From a virus (taxonomy: Duplodnaviria > Heunggongvirae > Uroviricota > Caudoviricetes), in IMG/VR virus record IMGVR_UViG_2698536672_000010: a DNA stretch of 10,206 bases. One strand, 5' to 3'. Position 1 is the first letter of the stretch, and every line of letters starts with the position of its first letter. This document shows, in pieces, positions 1,651 through 5,715 of the stretch. A program made the translations under genes and the position numbers. Under the pieces are notes generated by a model. It saw nothing but the letters and a program-made list of their open reading frames with translations. It was not told the origin of the DNA and made no database searches.

Positions 1651-1711
1651 CTTTACCCTCGCTTATCCACATAACTTATTGATTACATTGATAACTAAAA
1701 AGATCGTCGAT

Positions 1712-2173: not shown

Positions 2174-2974
2174 TTACTTGATAAATCCTGCTGCCTTTCC
2201 TCGCCTGTATTCCTCCATCAGCCACTGCGCCGGTGTTATTCCCCCCAGGGTGGCGGCGTTAGGCATGCACCCGAAACTTCGCCCTGGTGGATGGTAAACG
2301 TCTCTCCCTGTGTCCGGAGGTGTACTCATGGGTTCTGGCTTTGCCTGTATGCTGATCACCGGATCGGGTATCTGCTGTCCGGAAGCCACCTTTTTCGCCC
2401 AATCATCGAGCAACCTGCGCGCGTGTTTCTCAACCTCAATCTCGCTAAGCTGGCGCTGATACATTGCACGGCGGGTATCACATACGACCCAGTACATAAC
2501 CGGATGCCGCCACGGGAATCTTTCGGGACCACCAGGATATAAACTTTTTTCCTTGCTGTACCGGTGAAACTCCGCCATCACATCGTCAATGGTGACGCCA
2601 AGAACCATCTTGCTGTCTTTACACCACTTGATGAATTGCCCTGGCGACGGCCAGAACGGAGACTCACTGGCGCGAGCGTGGCGCATACCAGCAGAAACCT
2701 GTTCACGGGTTCGGATCCCACCTTCGGCAAACGCAGCAATCCACTGCTGTTTTGCAGCAACTTCCTGCTCTGGCGTCTTCAGGTTGGTTACCACTGCCGC
2801 CGGAAACAGTTGTTTCAGCTGTTTGAAAAGGGCATCAACAAGCCTCTCTGCTGACATGTTCACCACATTGTCATTGTTGACGTACTGATGCTCATAACCT
2901 GACATGCGAGAAAGGGCTTCTCCGTCACGGTTTTGTATCGCGGTAAAAACGTTGTTCACAAGAAATCCTCCCAT
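2174..2974 (-). CDS. P: Replication protein P homologue (lambda P-like DnaB helicase loader)
   Basis: Aligns by eye with lambda P as I recall it: window LFKQLKQLFPAAVV...QQWIAAFAEGGIRTREQVSAGMRHARASESPFWPSPGQFIKWCKD vs lambda FSQLLATFPASLAN...RRQWVLAFRENGITTMEQVNAGMRVARRQNRPFLPSPGQFVAWCRE. Likely true start is GTG at 2959 (GGAGGA 6 nt upstream), overlapping the O-like stop as GTGA; 2974 is the longest-ORF ATG. Confidence 0.85.
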   Translation of the reverse strand: MGGFLVNNVFTAIQNRDGEALSRMSGYEHQYVNNDNVVNMSAERLVDALFKQLKQLFPAAVVTNLKTPEQEVAAKQQWIAAFAEGGIRTREQVSAGMRHARASESPFWPSPGQFIKWCKDSKMVLGVTIDDVMAEFHRYSKEKSLYPGGPERFPWRHPVMYWVVCDTRRAMYQRQLSEIEVEKHARRLLDDWAKKVASGQQIPDPVISIQAKPEPMSTPPDTGRDVYHPPGRSFGCMPNAATLGGITPAQWLMEEYRRGKAAGFIK

Positions 2975-3771
2975 GCTTCAGGGCTGTTCCAGTGCGGAAC
3001 GTTGTTATCAGGTAATGTTGATTGCTTCTGTCTGCTAATCTGCAGCCGCCTTGCCAGCTTCTGCTCCCACTGTGCCTGATGGTATGCCTTACCCTCAGCC
3101 ATCCAGTAAATTCTGAACTCTGCAAGTTCCTGTGCCGTTGGCAGACTGTCCAGGTAGATCCCCTGCAATGAGCTTTTCCGAAGAAAGTCATCTGATGGCT
3201 GCCATTGTTCATGCATGACAAATTTGCCTAATTGCCCTGGCCCACCAGGAGGAACAAAGTTATTCATCACGGCGTTGTTTGCGCCGGGGTCATGAGGCAC
3301 AGAATCCCCGCTTTTTGTCCTGCTCTCCCTCTCTTGGTTAAATGACTGGTTATATGACTGGTTCTGGATCCCGTTTTTGGGATCATTCAACATCCCGTTT
3401 TTGGGATCATTCAACATCCCGTTTTTGGGTATATTCCCATTTTCGGTAACATTACCGTTTTCGGGTTCATTACCCCCTTCCCGGTTGCCTTTAATGTTCC
3501 CGTTTTTGGTTATATTAAGAGAGAAAACCCGCACTCTTTTCGTCGCTCCCTTTCTCTCTCCGGTATCTGAAATAAGCCCCATTTTCATGAGCGATATAAG
3601 CCCGGCCTGCACGGTTTTTTTATTCAGGCAAGTGTCTTTAACGAGGCGTTCTATGCTGGGGTAGCAGAGGTTATATTCATCGGCTCTGTCAGCCATCGAG
3701 AGCAGTATGAGCTTTAATGACGAGCTACCTGGATCTGTCTCCCAGGCCCAATCTGTTGCATGTCTGCTCAT
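2956..3771 (-). CDS. Replication initiator, O-like (winged-helix N-terminus, Asn-rich repetitive linker, C-terminal domain)
   Basis: 271-aa ORF immediately upstream of and coupled to the P homologue. GGAG Shine-Dalgarno 8 nt upstream of the ATG at 3771. N-terminus LKLILLSMADRADEYNLCYPSIERLVKDTCLNKKTVQAGLISLMKMGLISDTG looks like a winged-helix DNA-binding domain. Central linker is encoded by the iteron-like repeats. C-terminal region could be DnaT-like (uncertain recollection). Confidence 0.65.
   Translation of the reverse strand: MSRHATDWAWETDPGSSSLKLILLSMADRADEYNLCYPSIERLVKDTCLNKKTVQAGLISLMKMGLISDTGERKGATKRVRVFSLNITKNGNIKGNREGGNEPENGNVTENGNIPKNGMLNDPKNGMLNDPKNGIQNQSYNQSFNQERESRTKSGDSVPHDPGANNAVMNNFVPPGGPGQLGKFVMHEQWQPSDDFLRKSSLQGIYLDSLPTAQELAEFRIYWMAEGKAYHQAQWEQKLARRLQISRQKQSTLPDNNVPHWNSPEAWEDFL
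3340..3515. repeat. Iteron-like direct-repeat array inside the O-like gene (candidate replication origin)
   Basis: Core CC(C)GTTTT(T/C)GG occurs six times: 3370, 3394, 3418, 3436 (CCCATTTTCGG), 3455 and 3499. The first two copies are a perfect 24-bp tandem (CCCGTTTTTGGGATCATTCAACAT at 3370-3393 and 3394-3417). TGACTGGTT is also duplicated at 3342 and 3355. The repeats are in frame and encode the PKNGMLND linker. Confidence 0.55.
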
Positions 3772-3786
3772 GATTAATCTCCGCTA

Positions 3787-3987
3787 TCAGCTTGAATGTT
3801 GTGGGGAGGAATTAATCATGATCTGCTTAATCTCTGCCCTGATGCGACGGTTTGATTCCATGGTGCACTCAACACAGTGTCCGTTGTAAACCCAGCGTTC
3901 ACTGTCATGTCCGTGCTTACATGGTTTTCCGGTGTAGTAGCGTTTAAGTCCGCGCTTTGCGGCATCAATACGTGTAATGATTTCCAT
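3787..3987 (-). CDS. Small zinc-binding protein (Cys/His cluster), unknown function, in the cII position
   Basis: Preferred start is the ATG at 3987 (MEIITRIDAAKRGLKRYYTGKPCKHGHDSERWVYNGHCVEC...), with AGGG upstream. The longest ORF extends to 4050 but lacks a ribosome-binding site. Motif C-K-H-G-H ... N-G-H-C-V-E-C suggests a zinc ribbon or minimal HNH-like fold. Confidence 0.45.
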   Translation of the reverse strand: MEIITRIDAAKRGLKRYYTGKPCKHGHDSERWVYNGHCVECTMESNRRIRAEIKQIMINSSPQHSS

Positions 3988-4067
3988 GGTAAGCCCTGTT
4001 ATTAGTATTGGGATTACGGTCATTTTGTGCTGACACAAAAAAAAGATCAACCAGATTTGGTTATTTA

Positions 4068-4137: not shown

Positions 4138-4368
4138 TCATGAGTAGAAGAAGTATGCCAGTTCTGCTTTTGAGCGCAGCCATTGTCTTGTTTTACAGGC
4201 TTTAAAAAGCCCATTCATCAATACTTTACCTGGCATTTTGCGCTTACCTGTTAAGTGAGTCTGGATATAGTGACTCGTCGTTCCGGCTTCCTGTGCGAAG
4301 GCTTCACGCTCATCCGGAGTAAGTGCAAGCCAGTGCTTTTTGAAATCGAAATGTCCGTTATCGCTCAT
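4138..4368 (-). CDS. Cro-like small HTH DNA-binding protein
   Basis: 76-aa ORF transcribed divergently from the CI-like repressor. Segment TPDEREAFAQEAGTTSHYIQTHLTGKRK has the pattern of a Cro/YdaS-type helix-turn-helix. First gene of the leftward replication operon. Confidence 0.6.
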   Translation of the reverse strand: MSDNGHFDFKKHWLALTPDEREAFAQEAGTTSHYIQTHLTGKRKMPGKVLMNGLFKACKTRQWLRSKAELAYFFYS

Positions 4369-4404
4369 AGCTATTGCCTGATATTTATTTCAGATAATAA
4401 ATAT

Positions 4405-4467
4405 TCACCCATAAGGTAACAAAAATCAAGGATAGTTACCTATGAGGTGCATTTACCTGTTGGGTAA
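4405..4467. promoter_or_regulatory. Tripartite operator region between the Cro-like and CI-like genes (palindromes D, E, F) with divergent promoters
   Basis: D 4405-4419 TCACC-CATAA-GGTAA (1 mismatch). E 4436-4450 TTACC-TATGA-GGTGC (2 mismatches). F 4453-4467 TTACC-TGTTG-GGTAA (perfect). Candidate minus-strand -35 TTGATT at plus 4424-4429, with D in its spacer/-10 region. Candidate plus-strand -35 elements TTGCTT (4470) and TTGAAT (4480) lie just right of F. Confidence 0.5.
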
Positions 4468-4522
4468 TATTGCTTTAAATTGAATCATCTACTGATTCAT
4501 ATATGAGGCGATTTTCCAGAAA

Positions 4523-5107
4523 ATGAAAAGTATCCAGGACGTCCGCAGGCAAAATCTCAACGACTTGATCGACCGTGAATTCAATGGTGTTCAGACGCGG
4601 ATGGCAGAAAAACTTGGAACTCAGGCAAATCTGGTAAACCGCTGGGCTCTTGGCAAGAAGGTTATCGGCGACCAGGTTGCGCGAAAAATTGAAGCTGCCG
4701 CCAATAAACCCCGTAACTGGCTTGATATCGATCGCTCGCTTTCTCAGGAAGGTTTTCAGCCTGTCGGCCCAAGCGACATTGGTCAGCTGGCGGCTCACAA
4801 CCTGGAACGCTGGATGAGCGAAAGCCGCGACCTTTCAACACAGGGAAAACTTCACCGCGCATCCGGCGTCGCCCAGGTGACAATCAGCCGCCTGTTAAAC
4901 AATGAGGTCAGCGTTTCCATTTCCACCCTGGAGAATGTTGCATCCGCATTCGGGCGTCACGGCTATGAATTACTGATTCACCCGCACGACCCTGCGACTA
5001 TCAACTATGACCGCTCGCGCTACGCATTGTTACCCGAAACAGAGAAGGCAAAGATCGAAAGTTACATTGAATTTGTCATCAGCCAGAACGAAAAAAACAA
5101 ACAATAA
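4523..5107 (+). CDS. CI-like prophage repressor with two XRE-type HTH domains and no LexA-like peptidase domain
   Basis: 194-aa ORF. First HTH around GVQTRMAEKLGTQANLVNRWALGKK, second around GKLHRASGVAQVTISRLLNNEVSVSISTLENVASAFG. No S24 Ser/Lys dyad motif seen. Divergent from the Cro-like gene and followed by a strong terminator. Confidence 0.7.
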   Translation: MKSIQDVRRQNLNDLIDREFNGVQTRMAEKLGTQANLVNRWALGKKVIGDQVARKIEAAANKPRNWLDIDRSLSQEGFQPVGPSDIGQLAAHNLERWMSESRDLSTQGKLHRASGVAQVTISRLLNNEVSVSISTLENVASAFGRHGYELLIHPHDPATINYDRSRYALLPETEKAKIESYIEFVISQNEKNKQ

Positions 5108-5415: not shown

Positions 5416-5715
5416 ATGAACGTTAATCAGCAGAAAAATCTTCAAAAAATCATGCAGGCATTTGACAAGGACTACCACCTGTCAGAACAGCTATATGACC
5501 GACAAGTTGAACTGATTGAGAGCATCCGACTTCATCAACTGTCATCAACTTTCGACGTTGTAACAGGCAAAGGCGTTCGTCAGGAAGTACTGGAGGCTGC
5601 TAAAGACAGCCCTGAGTTCGAAGAACTGATGGATGCCTATCGGCGAGAGGCAATGGCAATTATCGCCCGCTGGGATCTGGCGGATCAGCTTGATGGACAG
5701 AAGGACGCGGCATGA
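5416..5715 (+). CDS. Hypothetical protein (99 aa), coupled upstream of the exonuclease
   Basis: ATG at 5416 with GGGAGGG Shine-Dalgarno 6 nt upstream; the track's 5401 start lies inside that Shine-Dalgarno. Stop overlaps the exonuclease start as ATGA. Acidic C-terminus; no domain recognised. Confidence 0.55.
   Translation: MNVNQQKNLQKIMQAFDKDYHLSEQLYDRQVELIESIRLHQLSSTFDVVTGKGVRQEVLEAAKDSPEFEELMDAYRREAMAIIARWDLADQLDGQKDAA

What the first reader, a model, noticed from the sequence alone, without database searches (positions are those of the whole stretch)
3340..3515. Iteron-like repeat array inside the O-like gene: candidate origin
Six copies of CC(C)GTTTT(T/C)GG, including a perfect 24-bp tandem duplication, lie inside the replication initiator gene and encode its Asn-rich linker (PKNGMLND x2). 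In phage lambda the origin is a set of iterons inside the O gene, bound by the O N-terminal domain. The same arrangement here, directly upstream of a clear P homologue, suggests the origin of this prophage.
Basis: partly seen in the sequence, partly recalled or inferred. Interest (0 to 1): 0.5.

Follow-up and report, generated by a model that had tools for sequence, protein, structure and literature searches.

The report
Probable phage origin inside initiator gene
A cluster of six short DNA repeats inside a prophage replication-initiator gene is very probably the phage's replication origin, built on the well-known phage lambda plan but with a different initiator protein family, so it is a sound but largely expected find.

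Summary
Six same-strand copies of CCGTTTTYGG lie at 3371-3509, against 1.4 expected in the whole window. They include a perfect 24-bp tandem and sit in the inter-domain linker of a 271-aa initiator gene (2956-3771, minus strand), directly upstream of a lambda P homologue. The window is about 98% identical to temperate phage phiV10.

The origin reading is well supported by comparison, though not by experiment.
- In 27 of 28 diverse homologues, from Gamma-, Beta-, Delta- and Alphaproteobacteria, the same N-terminal domain is followed at the same gene position by at least 4 related repeats.
- In 22 of those 27 the copies lie in more than one reading frame, so DNA rather than peptide is conserved.
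- Edwardsiella phage GF-2 is a natural hybrid. It joins this N-domain and repeats to the lambda O C-terminal domain (62% identity), which is the module swap expected of an origin.

The initiator is not a lambda O family member: it has HTH_36 and DnaT-like domains. No strongly AT-rich tract flanks the repeats. Instead there is a family-wide tandem 12-13-mer (GAAYC..TCA; 3335-3366) followed by a purine-rich run.

Verdict: a new member of a known kind, of moderate interest.

The parts
2956..3771 (-). Replication initiator gene (O-like by position; 271 aa) that contains the candidate origin
   Evidence: ORF list. Pfam HTH_36 at aa 18-67 and DnaT DNA-binding domain at aa 184-252. phrog_1032 'replication initiation protein', E 1e-108. 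No match to PF04492 or to lambda O.
3514..3771 (-). Coding region of the N-terminal winged-helix domain (aa 1-86), the presumed iteron-binding domain
3497..3512 (-). Iteron 1 (coding strand TAACCAAAAACGGGAA)
3452..3467 (-). Iteron 2 (AACCCGAAAACGGTAA), 45 nt from iteron 1
3434..3449 (-). Iteron 3 (TTACCGAAAATGGGAA), 18 nt spacing; the copy with one core mismatch
3416..3431 (-). Iteron 4 (TACCCAAAAACGGGAT), 18 nt spacing
3392..3407 (-). Iteron 5 (ATCCCAAAAACGGGAT, perfect 5-nt dyad arms), 24 nt spacing
   Evidence: This is the unit that expands and contracts in relatives.
3368..3383 (-). Iteron 6 (ATCCCAAAAACGGGAT, perfect dyad arms), 24 nt spacing; last copy before the 12-mers
3335..3366 (-). 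Tandem 12-mers directly 3' of the last iteron (coding strand CAG AACCAGTCATAT AACCAGTCATTT AACCA). Candidate unwinding or second recognition element.
   Evidence: TRF period 12, 2.4 copies; 3.4 copies in phiV10. Related tandem 12-13-mers RAAYC(N2-3)YCA sit at the same place in 22 of 28 homologues, about 15 times denser than elsewhere in the loci. AT fraction 0.62; stability z about 1-2. The function is inferred.
3311..3334 (-). Purine-rich run on the coding strand (AAGAGAGGGAGAGCAGGACAAAAAG). It includes a possible degenerate seventh iteron (ACAAAAAGCGG, + strand 3308-3318).
   Evidence: 80% purine on the coding strand, AT 0.46. Lambda shows similar strand asymmetry after its iterons (PMC5043065). 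The seventh copy was picked up at 2 mismatches and is weak.
3016..3222 (-). Coding region of the DnaT-like C-terminal domain (aa 184-252), the presumed partner-recruiting or ssDNA-binding domain
   Evidence: Pfam PF17948, E 1.2e-15. PDB DnaT chains 4ou6, 6aep and 9zbt at E about 1e-20.
2174..2974 (-). Lambda P homologue (helicase loader), overlapping the end of the initiator gene
   Evidence: Pfam PF06992, E 1.5e-56. phrog_109 P-like helicase loader. 31% identity to lambda P, E 2e-35.
4394..4422 (-). Candidate early rightward-type promoter upstream of the cro-like gene, small ORF, initiator and P. It would transcribe through the array.
   Evidence: Consensus scan only, 9 of 12 matches, and the number of sites is not above shuffles. 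It lies in the least stable AT-rich operator-like region 4380-4504. Weak.

Best explanation
The array at 3368-3512, together with the adjacent tandem 12-mers (3335-3366) and purine-rich run (3311-3334), is most likely the vegetative origin of replication of a phiV10-type temperate phage. It is embedded in the linker-coding part of the phage's own initiator gene.

Proposed mechanism:
1. The winged-helix N-terminal domain of the initiator binds the six iterons. Each iterons has CC(C)/GG(G) arms converging on an A-tract, and the two copies nearest the 12-mers are perfect ATCCC-AAAAAC-GGGAT dyads. This forms a multi-protein complex like the lambda O-some.
2. Helped by transcription through the gene and by supercoiling, this complex destabilises the flanking 12-mer and purine-rich segment.
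3. The DnaT-like C-terminal domain, with the P homologue, brings host DnaB to the opened DNA.

Shown here: the repeat anatomy, its DNA-level conservation and fixed position across the family, the modular co-inheritance with the N-domain, the fold class of that domain, and the P homologue. Inferred: binding, unwinding site, helicase recruitment and origin activity.
For: 1. Six clustered same-strand repeats, far above chance. A scan of the window finds a repeat family of this size only here.
2. The array starts 2 codons after the predicted winged-helix domain ends (aa 85) and ends before the DnaT-like domain. This matches the position of the four annotated lambda iterons inside O.
3. Twenty-seven of 28 homologous genes have at least 4 related repeats at gene nt 230-520. 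These come from E. coli, Edwardsiella, Vibrio, Acinetobacter, Burkholderia, Proteus, Pseudoalteromonas, Desulfovibrio, Methylotenera, Sphingobium and Zoogloeaceae, among others. At least 4 copies occur in 26 of 27 linker windows, against 7 of 233 control windows and 5 of 81 shuffles.
4. In 22 of the 27, the copies fall in more than one reading frame, with spacings of 17, 22 or 23 nt. In Bcep176 gp11 the same DNA is read in all three frames. Selection is therefore on DNA.
5. Module swapping. GF-2 has this N-domain, iterons and 12-mers fused to a C-terminal domain 62% identical to lambda O aa 156-299, and is followed by P. AP22 and Ab105-2phi have the same N-module followed by a DnaB-like helicase gene. 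TL-2011b keeps the DnaT-like C-domain and P but has another N-domain and different repeats.
6. The iteron grammar, inverted arms converging on an A-tract, matches lambda iterons (PMC5043065) and RepA_N iterons (PMC7145576).
7. The downstream gene is a P homologue.
8. Copy number varies in steps of whole units, as in lambdoid origins. There are 4-9 copies among 80 loci with a 99-100% identical N-domain, and up to eight PKNGMLND units in E. coli proteins. Lambda has four iterons and Stx phages six (PMC7466680).
Against: - There are no experimental data on replication or binding for this family in the literature I could search.
- No strongly AT-rich unwinding tract adjoins the iterons. AT is 0.57 over the 60 nt after the last iteron, against 0.68 in lambda, and the stability z-score there is only about 1-2. 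The least stable DNA in the window is intergenic.
- Dyad symmetry is perfect in only 2 of 6 copies, and family-wide arm complementarity is only partial.
- The N-domain shows no significant sequence similarity to the lambda O N-domain, and the fold match is generic winged helix.
- Because the repeats and the N-domain lie in one gene, their co-inheritance is partly a matter of physical linkage.
Confidence: 0.75

Rival explanations
1. The repeats are genuine binding sites for the initiator, but they serve autoregulation, copy control or exclusion by titration or handcuffing. Strand opening and helicase loading happen elsewhere, for example in the AT-rich intergenic region at 1651-1711.
For: There is no strong AT-rich tract next to the array. 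The 1662-1701 segment is among the least stable 40-mers of the window (z 3.3). It carries a perfect DnaA box (1663-1671) beside an IHF-consensus site (1672-1684).
Against: One DnaA box is what chance predicts for this window (expected 1.04). The family-wide conserved 12-13-mer element abuts the iterons rather than lying elsewhere. The N-domain, iterons and 12-mers move as one module between phages with quite different neighbouring genes, which fits a self-contained origin. In lambda and in iteron plasmids the same sites serve both initiation and control (PMC5043065).
Confidence: 0.13
2. The repeats are a by-product of a slippage-prone, low-complexity Asn/Gly/Pro-rich flexible linker. They are selected, if at all, at the peptide level and have no DNA-level function.
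For: In the window all six copies are in one reading frame, and every spacing is a multiple of 3. Indels among relatives are whole units that preserve the frame. The encoded segment is predicted to be disordered.
Against: In 22 of 27 homologues the related DNA motif is used in two or three reading frames and encodes unrelated peptides. The DNA core CC(C/G)AAA..GG persists across classes of Proteobacteria while linker peptides differ. The partial dyad symmetry has no meaning for a peptide.
Confidence: 0.05
3. The array acts at the RNA or transcription level, for example by attenuation, antisense termination or translational pausing that controls the initiator to P ratio.
For: Adjacent iterons form weak hairpin-plus-T-run terminator-like sites on the antisense (+) strand at 3378-3397 and 3402-3421.
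Against: The stems are only 6 bp with 3 GC pairs. No Rfam family matches. Homologues with other spacings and arms would not keep these hairpins. This idea does not explain the co-inheritance with a DNA-binding domain.
Confidence: 0.03

Closest known systems
Phage lambda origin (ori-lambda) inside gene O, with O and P
   Same: Direct repeats with internal inverted arms around an A-tract (lambda ATCCCTCAAAACGAGGGAT; here ATCCCAAAAACGGGAT). They lie in the linker-coding middle of the initiator gene, in the same order: N-domain, iterons, strand-asymmetric purine-rich DNA, C-domain. A P helicase-loader gene follows immediately. The array is transcribed from the early operon. Iteron number varies between relatives. 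The specificity module is exchangeable (PMC5043065, PMC7466680).
   Different: The initiator N-domain is Pfam HTH_36, not Phage_rep_O, with no significant sequence similarity. The C-domain is DnaT-like rather than lambda-O-like. There are six 16-bp iterons at 18, 24 and 45-nt spacing instead of four 19-bp ones. A conserved tandem 12-13-mer stands where lambda has a 40-bp AT-rich tract, and AT-richness is weak.
RepA_N plasmid and satellite replicons (pSK41, pTZ2162, Vibrio PLE RepA)
   Different: There is no Pfam RepA_N match, and the structural similarity is no better than to generic MarR, Crp or TFE winged helices. The setting here is a Gram-negative lambdoid early operon with a P loader.
Iteron plasmids (RK2, F, P1, pPS10) and oriC: initiator sites plus a DUE made of repeated 13-mers
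   Same: Multiple initiator sites are flanked on one side by short tandem repeats of about 12-13 nt. In RK2 and F, Rep binds one strand of the opened 13-mers (PMC5043065).
   Different: The 12-13-mers here are only moderately AT-rich (0.62). No DnaA box lies next to the array. The element lies inside a coding sequence.
E. coli primosomal protein DnaT
   Same: The C-terminal domain (aa 184-252) is homologous to the DnaT ssDNA-binding domain. Database names for this protein, such as 'primosomal protein I' and 'DnaT', derive from this.
   Different: DnaT has no winged-helix N-domain and no iterons, and it acts in PriA-dependent restart rather than at a specific origin. The annotation as 'primosomal protein' is therefore misleading for this gene.

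Membership tests
Lambda-type origin (iterons inside the initiator gene, O/P system) | At least four direct repeats with internal dyad symmetry in the inter-domain part of the initiator gene | tested here: met
   Six copies at 3368-3512, between the winged-helix domain (ends aa 85) and the DnaT-like domain (starts aa 184). CC/GG inner arms occur in all copies and perfect 5-nt arms in two.
Lambda-type origin (iterons inside the initiator gene, O/P system) | AT-rich, strand-asymmetric unwinding tract directly after the iterons | tested here: inconclusive
   The 12-mers have AT 0.62 and stability z of 1-2. The next 24 nt are 80% purine on the coding strand but only 46% AT. Lambda has AT 0.68 and purine 0.67 over 60 nt.
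Lambda-type origin (iterons inside the initiator gene, O/P system) | Initiator belongs to the lambda O family (Pfam Phage_rep_O, PF04492) | tested here: not met
   Lambda O hits PF04492 at E 6e-36, whereas the window protein hits HTH_36 and DnaT only. BLASTP against lambda O is not significant, and hhalign probability is 1.5%.
Lambda-type origin (iterons inside the initiator gene, O/P system) | Adjacent P-type helicase loader | tested here: met
   PF06992 at E 1.5e-56; 31% identity to lambda P.
Lambda-type origin (iterons inside the initiator gene, O/P system) | Origin specificity resides in an exchangeable module of N-domain plus iterons | tested here: met
   GF-2 hybrid with the lambda O C-domain. 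TL-2011b has another N-domain and other repeats but the same C-domain and P. AP22 and Ab105-2phi have the same N-module next to a helicase gene.
Lambda-type origin (iterons inside the initiator gene, O/P system) | The initiator binds the repeats, and the fragment replicates when initiator and loader are supplied in trans | not testable with these tools
   Requires EMSA or footprinting and a replication assay. No such data were found in the literature searched.
RepA_N replication initiators (PF06970) | N-terminal domain matches the RepA_N profile or its specific fold | tested here: not met
RepA_N replication initiators (PF06970) | Semi-palindromic direct repeats with arms converging on a poly-A tract | tested here: met
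   ATCCC-AAAAAC-GGGAT and its variants. The description of RepA_N iterons is from PMC7145576.
Iteron-plasmid or oriC-type origin with a 13-mer DUE | Tandem repeats of about 13 nt flanking the initiator sites | tested here: met
   12-bp x2.4 in the window. 12-13-mers RAAYC(N2-3)YCA occur in at least 2 copies in 22 of 28 homologues, directly after the last iteron.
Iteron-plasmid or oriC-type origin with a 13-mer DUE | Low helical stability of the repeats, and DnaA boxes nearby | tested here: not met
   Stability is only z 1-2. The only DnaA box of the window is about 1.7 kb away, at 1663-1671.

The most novel reading that the evidence does not exclude
The tandem 12-13-mer GAAYC(N2-3)TCA that directly follows the iterons may be a sequence-specific unwinding or helicase-loading element rather than a merely AT-rich one. 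It is more conserved than the iterons themselves, from E. coli to Desulfovibrio, Methylotenera, Sphingobium and Zoogloeaceae prophages. It is read in different frames, and it travels with the HTH_36 N-domain whatever the C-domain or loader. It could be recognised either by the initiator N-domain, as half-sites or as single strands (as Rep proteins do on plasmid 13-mers), or by a universal host replisome component. On that reading, this large and almost unstudied initiator family opens DNA by a rule different from lambda's AT-rich tract.
Probability: 0.3. Interest if true: 0.6.

Novelty: new member of a known kind. Interest (0 to 1): 0.4.

Why it matters
This module occurs in phiV10-type prophages of about 8% of complete E. 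coli genomes (422 of 5426), including O157 and other pathogenic lineages. Related modules are spread across Proteobacteria.

In databases the gene is named 'primosomal protein I', 'DnaT' or simply 'helix-turn-helix protein'. The phiV10 record as displayed lists no repeat or binding feature over it, whereas the lambda record lists its iterons.

Recognising the array as the probable origin has several uses:
- It corrects the functional reading of the gene.
- It gives a defined fragment of about 240 bp for building replicons or for origin-titration tools against these phages.
- It explains why this gene shows length polymorphism and truncated gene calls in assemblies.
- It offers many natural N-domain and iteron pairs for studying how winged-helix initiators read their sites.

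Conceptually it extends the lambda paradigm without overturning it.

Tried and rejected
- **Sequence homology to the lambda O N-domain.** BLASTP and hhalign were not significant, so I do not call the protein an O homologue.
- **A clean compensatory dyad-arm covariation argument.** Per-locus arm complementarity is only 0.4-0.9 and the best axis shifts between loci. I report only partial symmetry.
- **An AT-rich DUE.** The nearest-neighbour stability profile shows no strong minimum beside the array.
- **DnaA and IHF sites at the array.** None are present; the only DnaA box is at 1663-1671.
- **First database search with the N-domain alone.** It returned mostly truncated or frameshifted fragments.
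- **First IMG/VR scan.** It returned only near-identical loci. These were useful for copy number but not for diversity.
- **Literature.** Searches for phiV10 or epsilon15 origins, the motif string, non-lambdoid Stx replication regions and Weigel and Seitz-type reviews found no description of this origin. The phiV10 genome paper and Weaver et al. 2009 are not held, so prior description cannot be excluded.
- **Rfam.** No RNA family was found in the window.

Full report
**What is there**

The window is an early (immunity and replication) region about 98% identical to the temperate E. coli O157 podophage phiV10 (Uetakevirus) and its relatives.

On the minus strand, the order is:
- a cro-like gene (4138-4368);
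- a small ORF (3787-3990);
- a 271-aa initiator gene (2956-3771);
- a lambda P homologue (2174-2974; PF06992 at E 1.5e-56, and 31% identical to lambda P).

A divergent repressor gene lies at 4523-5107. RecT-type recombination genes and an integrase follow further along the window.

The initiator has an N-terminal Pfam HTH_36 domain and a C-terminal DnaT-like ssDNA-binding domain. It does not match the lambda O family.

**The observation**

CCGTTTTYGG occurs six times, five exact and one with a single mismatch. All copies are on the + strand, between 3371 and 3509. Shuffles of the whole window give a mean of 1.4, and only 1 of 200 reached six.

TRF finds a perfect 24-bp unit x2.6, an 18-bp unit x3.1 and, next to them, a 12-bp tandem x2.4 at 3335-3363.

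Read on the coding strand, the six 16-bp units are as follows.

| Iteron | Sequence | Distance from previous copy |
|---|---|---|
| 1 | TAACCAAAAACGGGAA | - |
| 2 | AACCCGAAAACGGTAA | 45 nt |
| 3 | TTACCGAAAATGGGAA | 18 nt |
| 4 | TACCCAAAAACGGGAT | 18 nt |
| 5 | ATCCCAAAAACGGGAT | 24 nt |
| 6 | ATCCCAAAAACGGGAT | 24 nt |

All six have CC..GG arms around an A-tract. The last two are perfect ATCCC/GGGAT dyads.

The array begins two codons after the end of the predicted winged-helix domain, whose strand 79-85 closes the fold (AlphaFold2 pLDDT 85). It encodes the disordered stretch TKNGN...PKNGMLNDPKNGMLNDPKNG.

**Is it DNA or peptide that matters?**

In the window all copies share one reading frame, so the window alone cannot decide. 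Relatives do decide it.

tblastn with the protein found N-domain homologues at 36-50% identity in six phages:
- Edwardsiella phage GF-2;
- Vibrio anguillarum phage Her;
- Acinetobacter phages AP22 and Ab105-2phi;
- Burkholderia phage Bcep176;
- E. coli PPompW phages.

A scan of one genome per species added 21 usable loci. These come from Proteus, Providencia, Ignatzschineria, Phaseolibacter, Vibrio, Marinobacterium, Wohlfahrtiimonas, Pseudoalteromonas, Superficieibacter, Desulfovibrio, Acinetobacter, Methylotenera, Sphingobium, Zoogloeaceae and others.

A de novo search for the largest 11-mer family (up to 2 mismatches) in gene nt 230-520 gave the results below.

| Sequence set | Windows or genes with at least 4 copies |
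|---|---|
| Homologous genes, including the window | 27 of 28 |
| Linker windows of the fetched loci | 26 of 27 |
| Other 290-nt windows of the same loci | 7 of 233 |
| Dinucleotide shuffles of the linkers | 5 of 81 |

The core is CC(C/G)AAA(A/T)(C/T)(G/T)GG in most Gammaproteobacteria. Lineage-specific variants include GTACCGAAATTGGTAC, AGTGCCAAAAGTGGCACT and AACCAGTCGGAAAA.

In 22 of the 27 arrays the copies lie in two or three reading frames, with spacings of 17, 22 or 23 nt. In Bcep176 gp11 the unit AACAGTCCCAAA is translated as TVPN, NSPN and KQSQK. The conserved object is therefore DNA.

**Module behaviour**

GF-2 gp62 has this N-domain (about 59% identical to the window's), five iterons (ATCCCAAAATTGGGAT) and the downstream 12-mers. 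It then continues with 144 residues that are 62% identical to lambda O aa 156-299 (E 2e-67), and a P gene follows. The joint falls exactly where ori-lambda ends in O.

This natural hybrid places [HTH_36 domain + repeats] in the slot occupied in lambda by [O N-domain + ori-lambda].

Other combinations support the same picture:
- TL-2011b and ZX5 keep the DnaT-like C-domain and P but carry another N-domain and different repeats (GTAACGC/GCGTTAC) at the equivalent place.
- AP22 and Ab105-2phi couple the N-module to a DnaB-like helicase gene.

This is the classical signature of an origin-recognition module joined to a partner-recruiting domain.

**A second element**

Directly after the last iteron, almost every family member has CAG followed by two to four tandem 12-13-nt units, RAAYC(N2-3)YCA. 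Examples:
- window: AACCAGTCATAT AACCAGTCATTT AACCA;
- Vibrio Her: GAACCAGTCATTA GAACCAGTCATA GAACCA, read in two frames;
- Zoogloeaceae: GAATCTATCAGT GAACCTATCAGT;
- Desulfovibrionaceae: four copies.

At least two copies occur in 22 of 28 loci. Density is 6.2 per kb in the zone against 0.42 per kb elsewhere. phiV10 has one more unit than the window.

A purine-rich or A-rich run follows. In the window it is AAGAGAGGGAGAGCAGGACAAAAAG, 80% purine. Lambda's post-iteron tract is similarly strand-asymmetric (PMC5043065).

This flank is only mildly unstable, with AT of 0.57-0.62 and z of about 1-2. The lambda criterion of an AT-rich tract is therefore not clearly met.

The 12-13-mers are my best candidate for the opening or loading site, by analogy with the 13-mers of oriC and RK2 (PMC5043065). 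This is inference.

**Copy number**

The region is present in 422 of 5426 complete E. coli genomes. Match lengths are 327-387 nt against the 351-nt query.

Among 80 IMG/VR loci with a 99-100% identical N-domain, the array has 4-9 copies. The commonest layout is the window's (45, 18, 18, 24, 24), and the variation comes mainly from gain or loss of 24-bp or 18-bp units.

E. coli proteins of 279, 287 and 311 aa carry 4, 5 and 8 PKNG(M/I) units, where the window has 3. The BP9 record lacks one unit.

Lambdoid origins likewise vary: lambda has four iterons and Stx phages six (PMC7466680).

**Mechanism proposed**

As in lambda (PMC5043065), early transcription passes through the gene and produces the initiator.
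1. The initiator's winged-helix domain occupies the iterons. Occupation would probably start with the two perfect copies nearest the 12-mers, because in lambda the two iterons next to the AT-rich tract suffice for unwinding (PMC7466680).
2. The resulting nucleoprotein complex, with supercoiling, opens the adjacent 12-mer and purine-rich DNA.
3. The DnaT-like domain and P deliver DnaB.

Only the anatomy, conservation, fold class and gene content are shown here. Binding, opening and loading are inferred.

**Rivals**

- *Binding sites used for control, with the real origin elsewhere.* The AT-rich intergenic 1651-1711 carries a perfect DnaA box and an adjacent IHF consensus. However, one DnaA box is what chance predicts, and nothing ties that region to the initiator module.
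- *A mere slippery linker.* This is contradicted by the multi-frame conservation.
- *An RNA-level role.* It rests only on weak antisense hairpins.

**Comparison and novelty**

Functionally this is a lambda-type origin embedded in the initiator gene.

By membership, the initiator is not lambda O (PF04492 not met) and not RepA_N (PF06970 not met). It nevertheless shares the iteron grammar of both, namely inverted arms converging on an A-tract (PMC7145576).

I found no description of this origin in the searchable literature. The phiV10 record as displayed shows no repeat or binding feature there. The phiV10 and epsilon15 genome papers and the main review of phage replication modules could not be read, so prior mention cannot be excluded.

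I rate it a new member of a known kind, with moderate interest (0.4). The cross-phylum 12-13-mer is the part most worth following up.

Noticed in passing
window 1651-1711: An AT-rich intergenic region (1662-1701 is among the least stable 40-mers of the window, z 3.3). It holds the only perfect DnaA box of the window (TTATCCACA, 1663-1671), abutting an IHF-consensus site (1672-1684, minus strand). A second IHF consensus lies at 1627-1639. This could be a late or nin-type promoter region or an auxiliary replication element. The number of boxes is not above chance.
   Followed up: partly
window 3335-3366; L007 about 1971-2010; L116, L112 and other loci: A tandem 12-13-mer RAAYC(N2-3)YCA directly after the iteron array is more widely conserved than the iterons themselves. 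It appears in Gamma-, Beta-, Delta- and Alphaproteobacterial prophages and is sometimes read in different frames. Its left part (RAACC) resembles the left arm of some iterons, so the units may be half-sites.
   Followed up: partly
window 3377-3664 (+): A 95-aa antisense ORF (MGSFNIPFLGSFNIPFLG...) runs across the repeat array. It is probably spurious. The YDC107_2 record annotates a 'putative membrane protein' under this region, likely this artefact.
   Followed up: no
window 3378-3421 (+): Neighbouring iterons form two weak hairpin-plus-T-run terminator-like sites on the antisense strand (TGGGATCATTCAACATCCCG TTTTT). They could block antisense transcription into the origin, or they may be incidental.
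   Followed up: no
proteins P0001-P0037; L020, L034, L035, L049: Many database entries for this gene are truncated or frameshifted fragments ending in or near the repeat array. One example is a 119-aa form with 48 member sequences. This suggests assembly or gene-calling problems, or real frameshift variants, caused by the repeats.
   Followed up: no
L002 (PP488543.1, 'Escherichia phage BP9', 138 kb Vequintavirus record): A 2.4-kb stretch 97% identical to this temperate-phage replication module sits near the end of a record for a lytic rV5-like phage. Possible explanations are a chimeric assembly, prophage contamination or a genuine acquisition.
   Followed up: no
L003 1740-2010 (TL-2011b initiator gene): The alternative initiator (different N-domain, same DnaT-like C-domain and P) carries its own repeats in the equivalent linker: GTAACGC..GCGTTAC palindromes and GTAACGC direct repeats, followed by GAGGAAGAGGAAGATATATATAAAA. 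This looks like a second origin type in the same phage group.
   Followed up: partly
window 8099-8761 and 5712-7411: An MT-A70-type DNA methyltransferase-like ORF, and a YqaJ-like exonuclease plus RecT pair. In phiV10 the recombination genes are annotated as a single RecE-RecT fusion, whereas here they are two ORFs overlapping by 4 nt.
   Followed up: no
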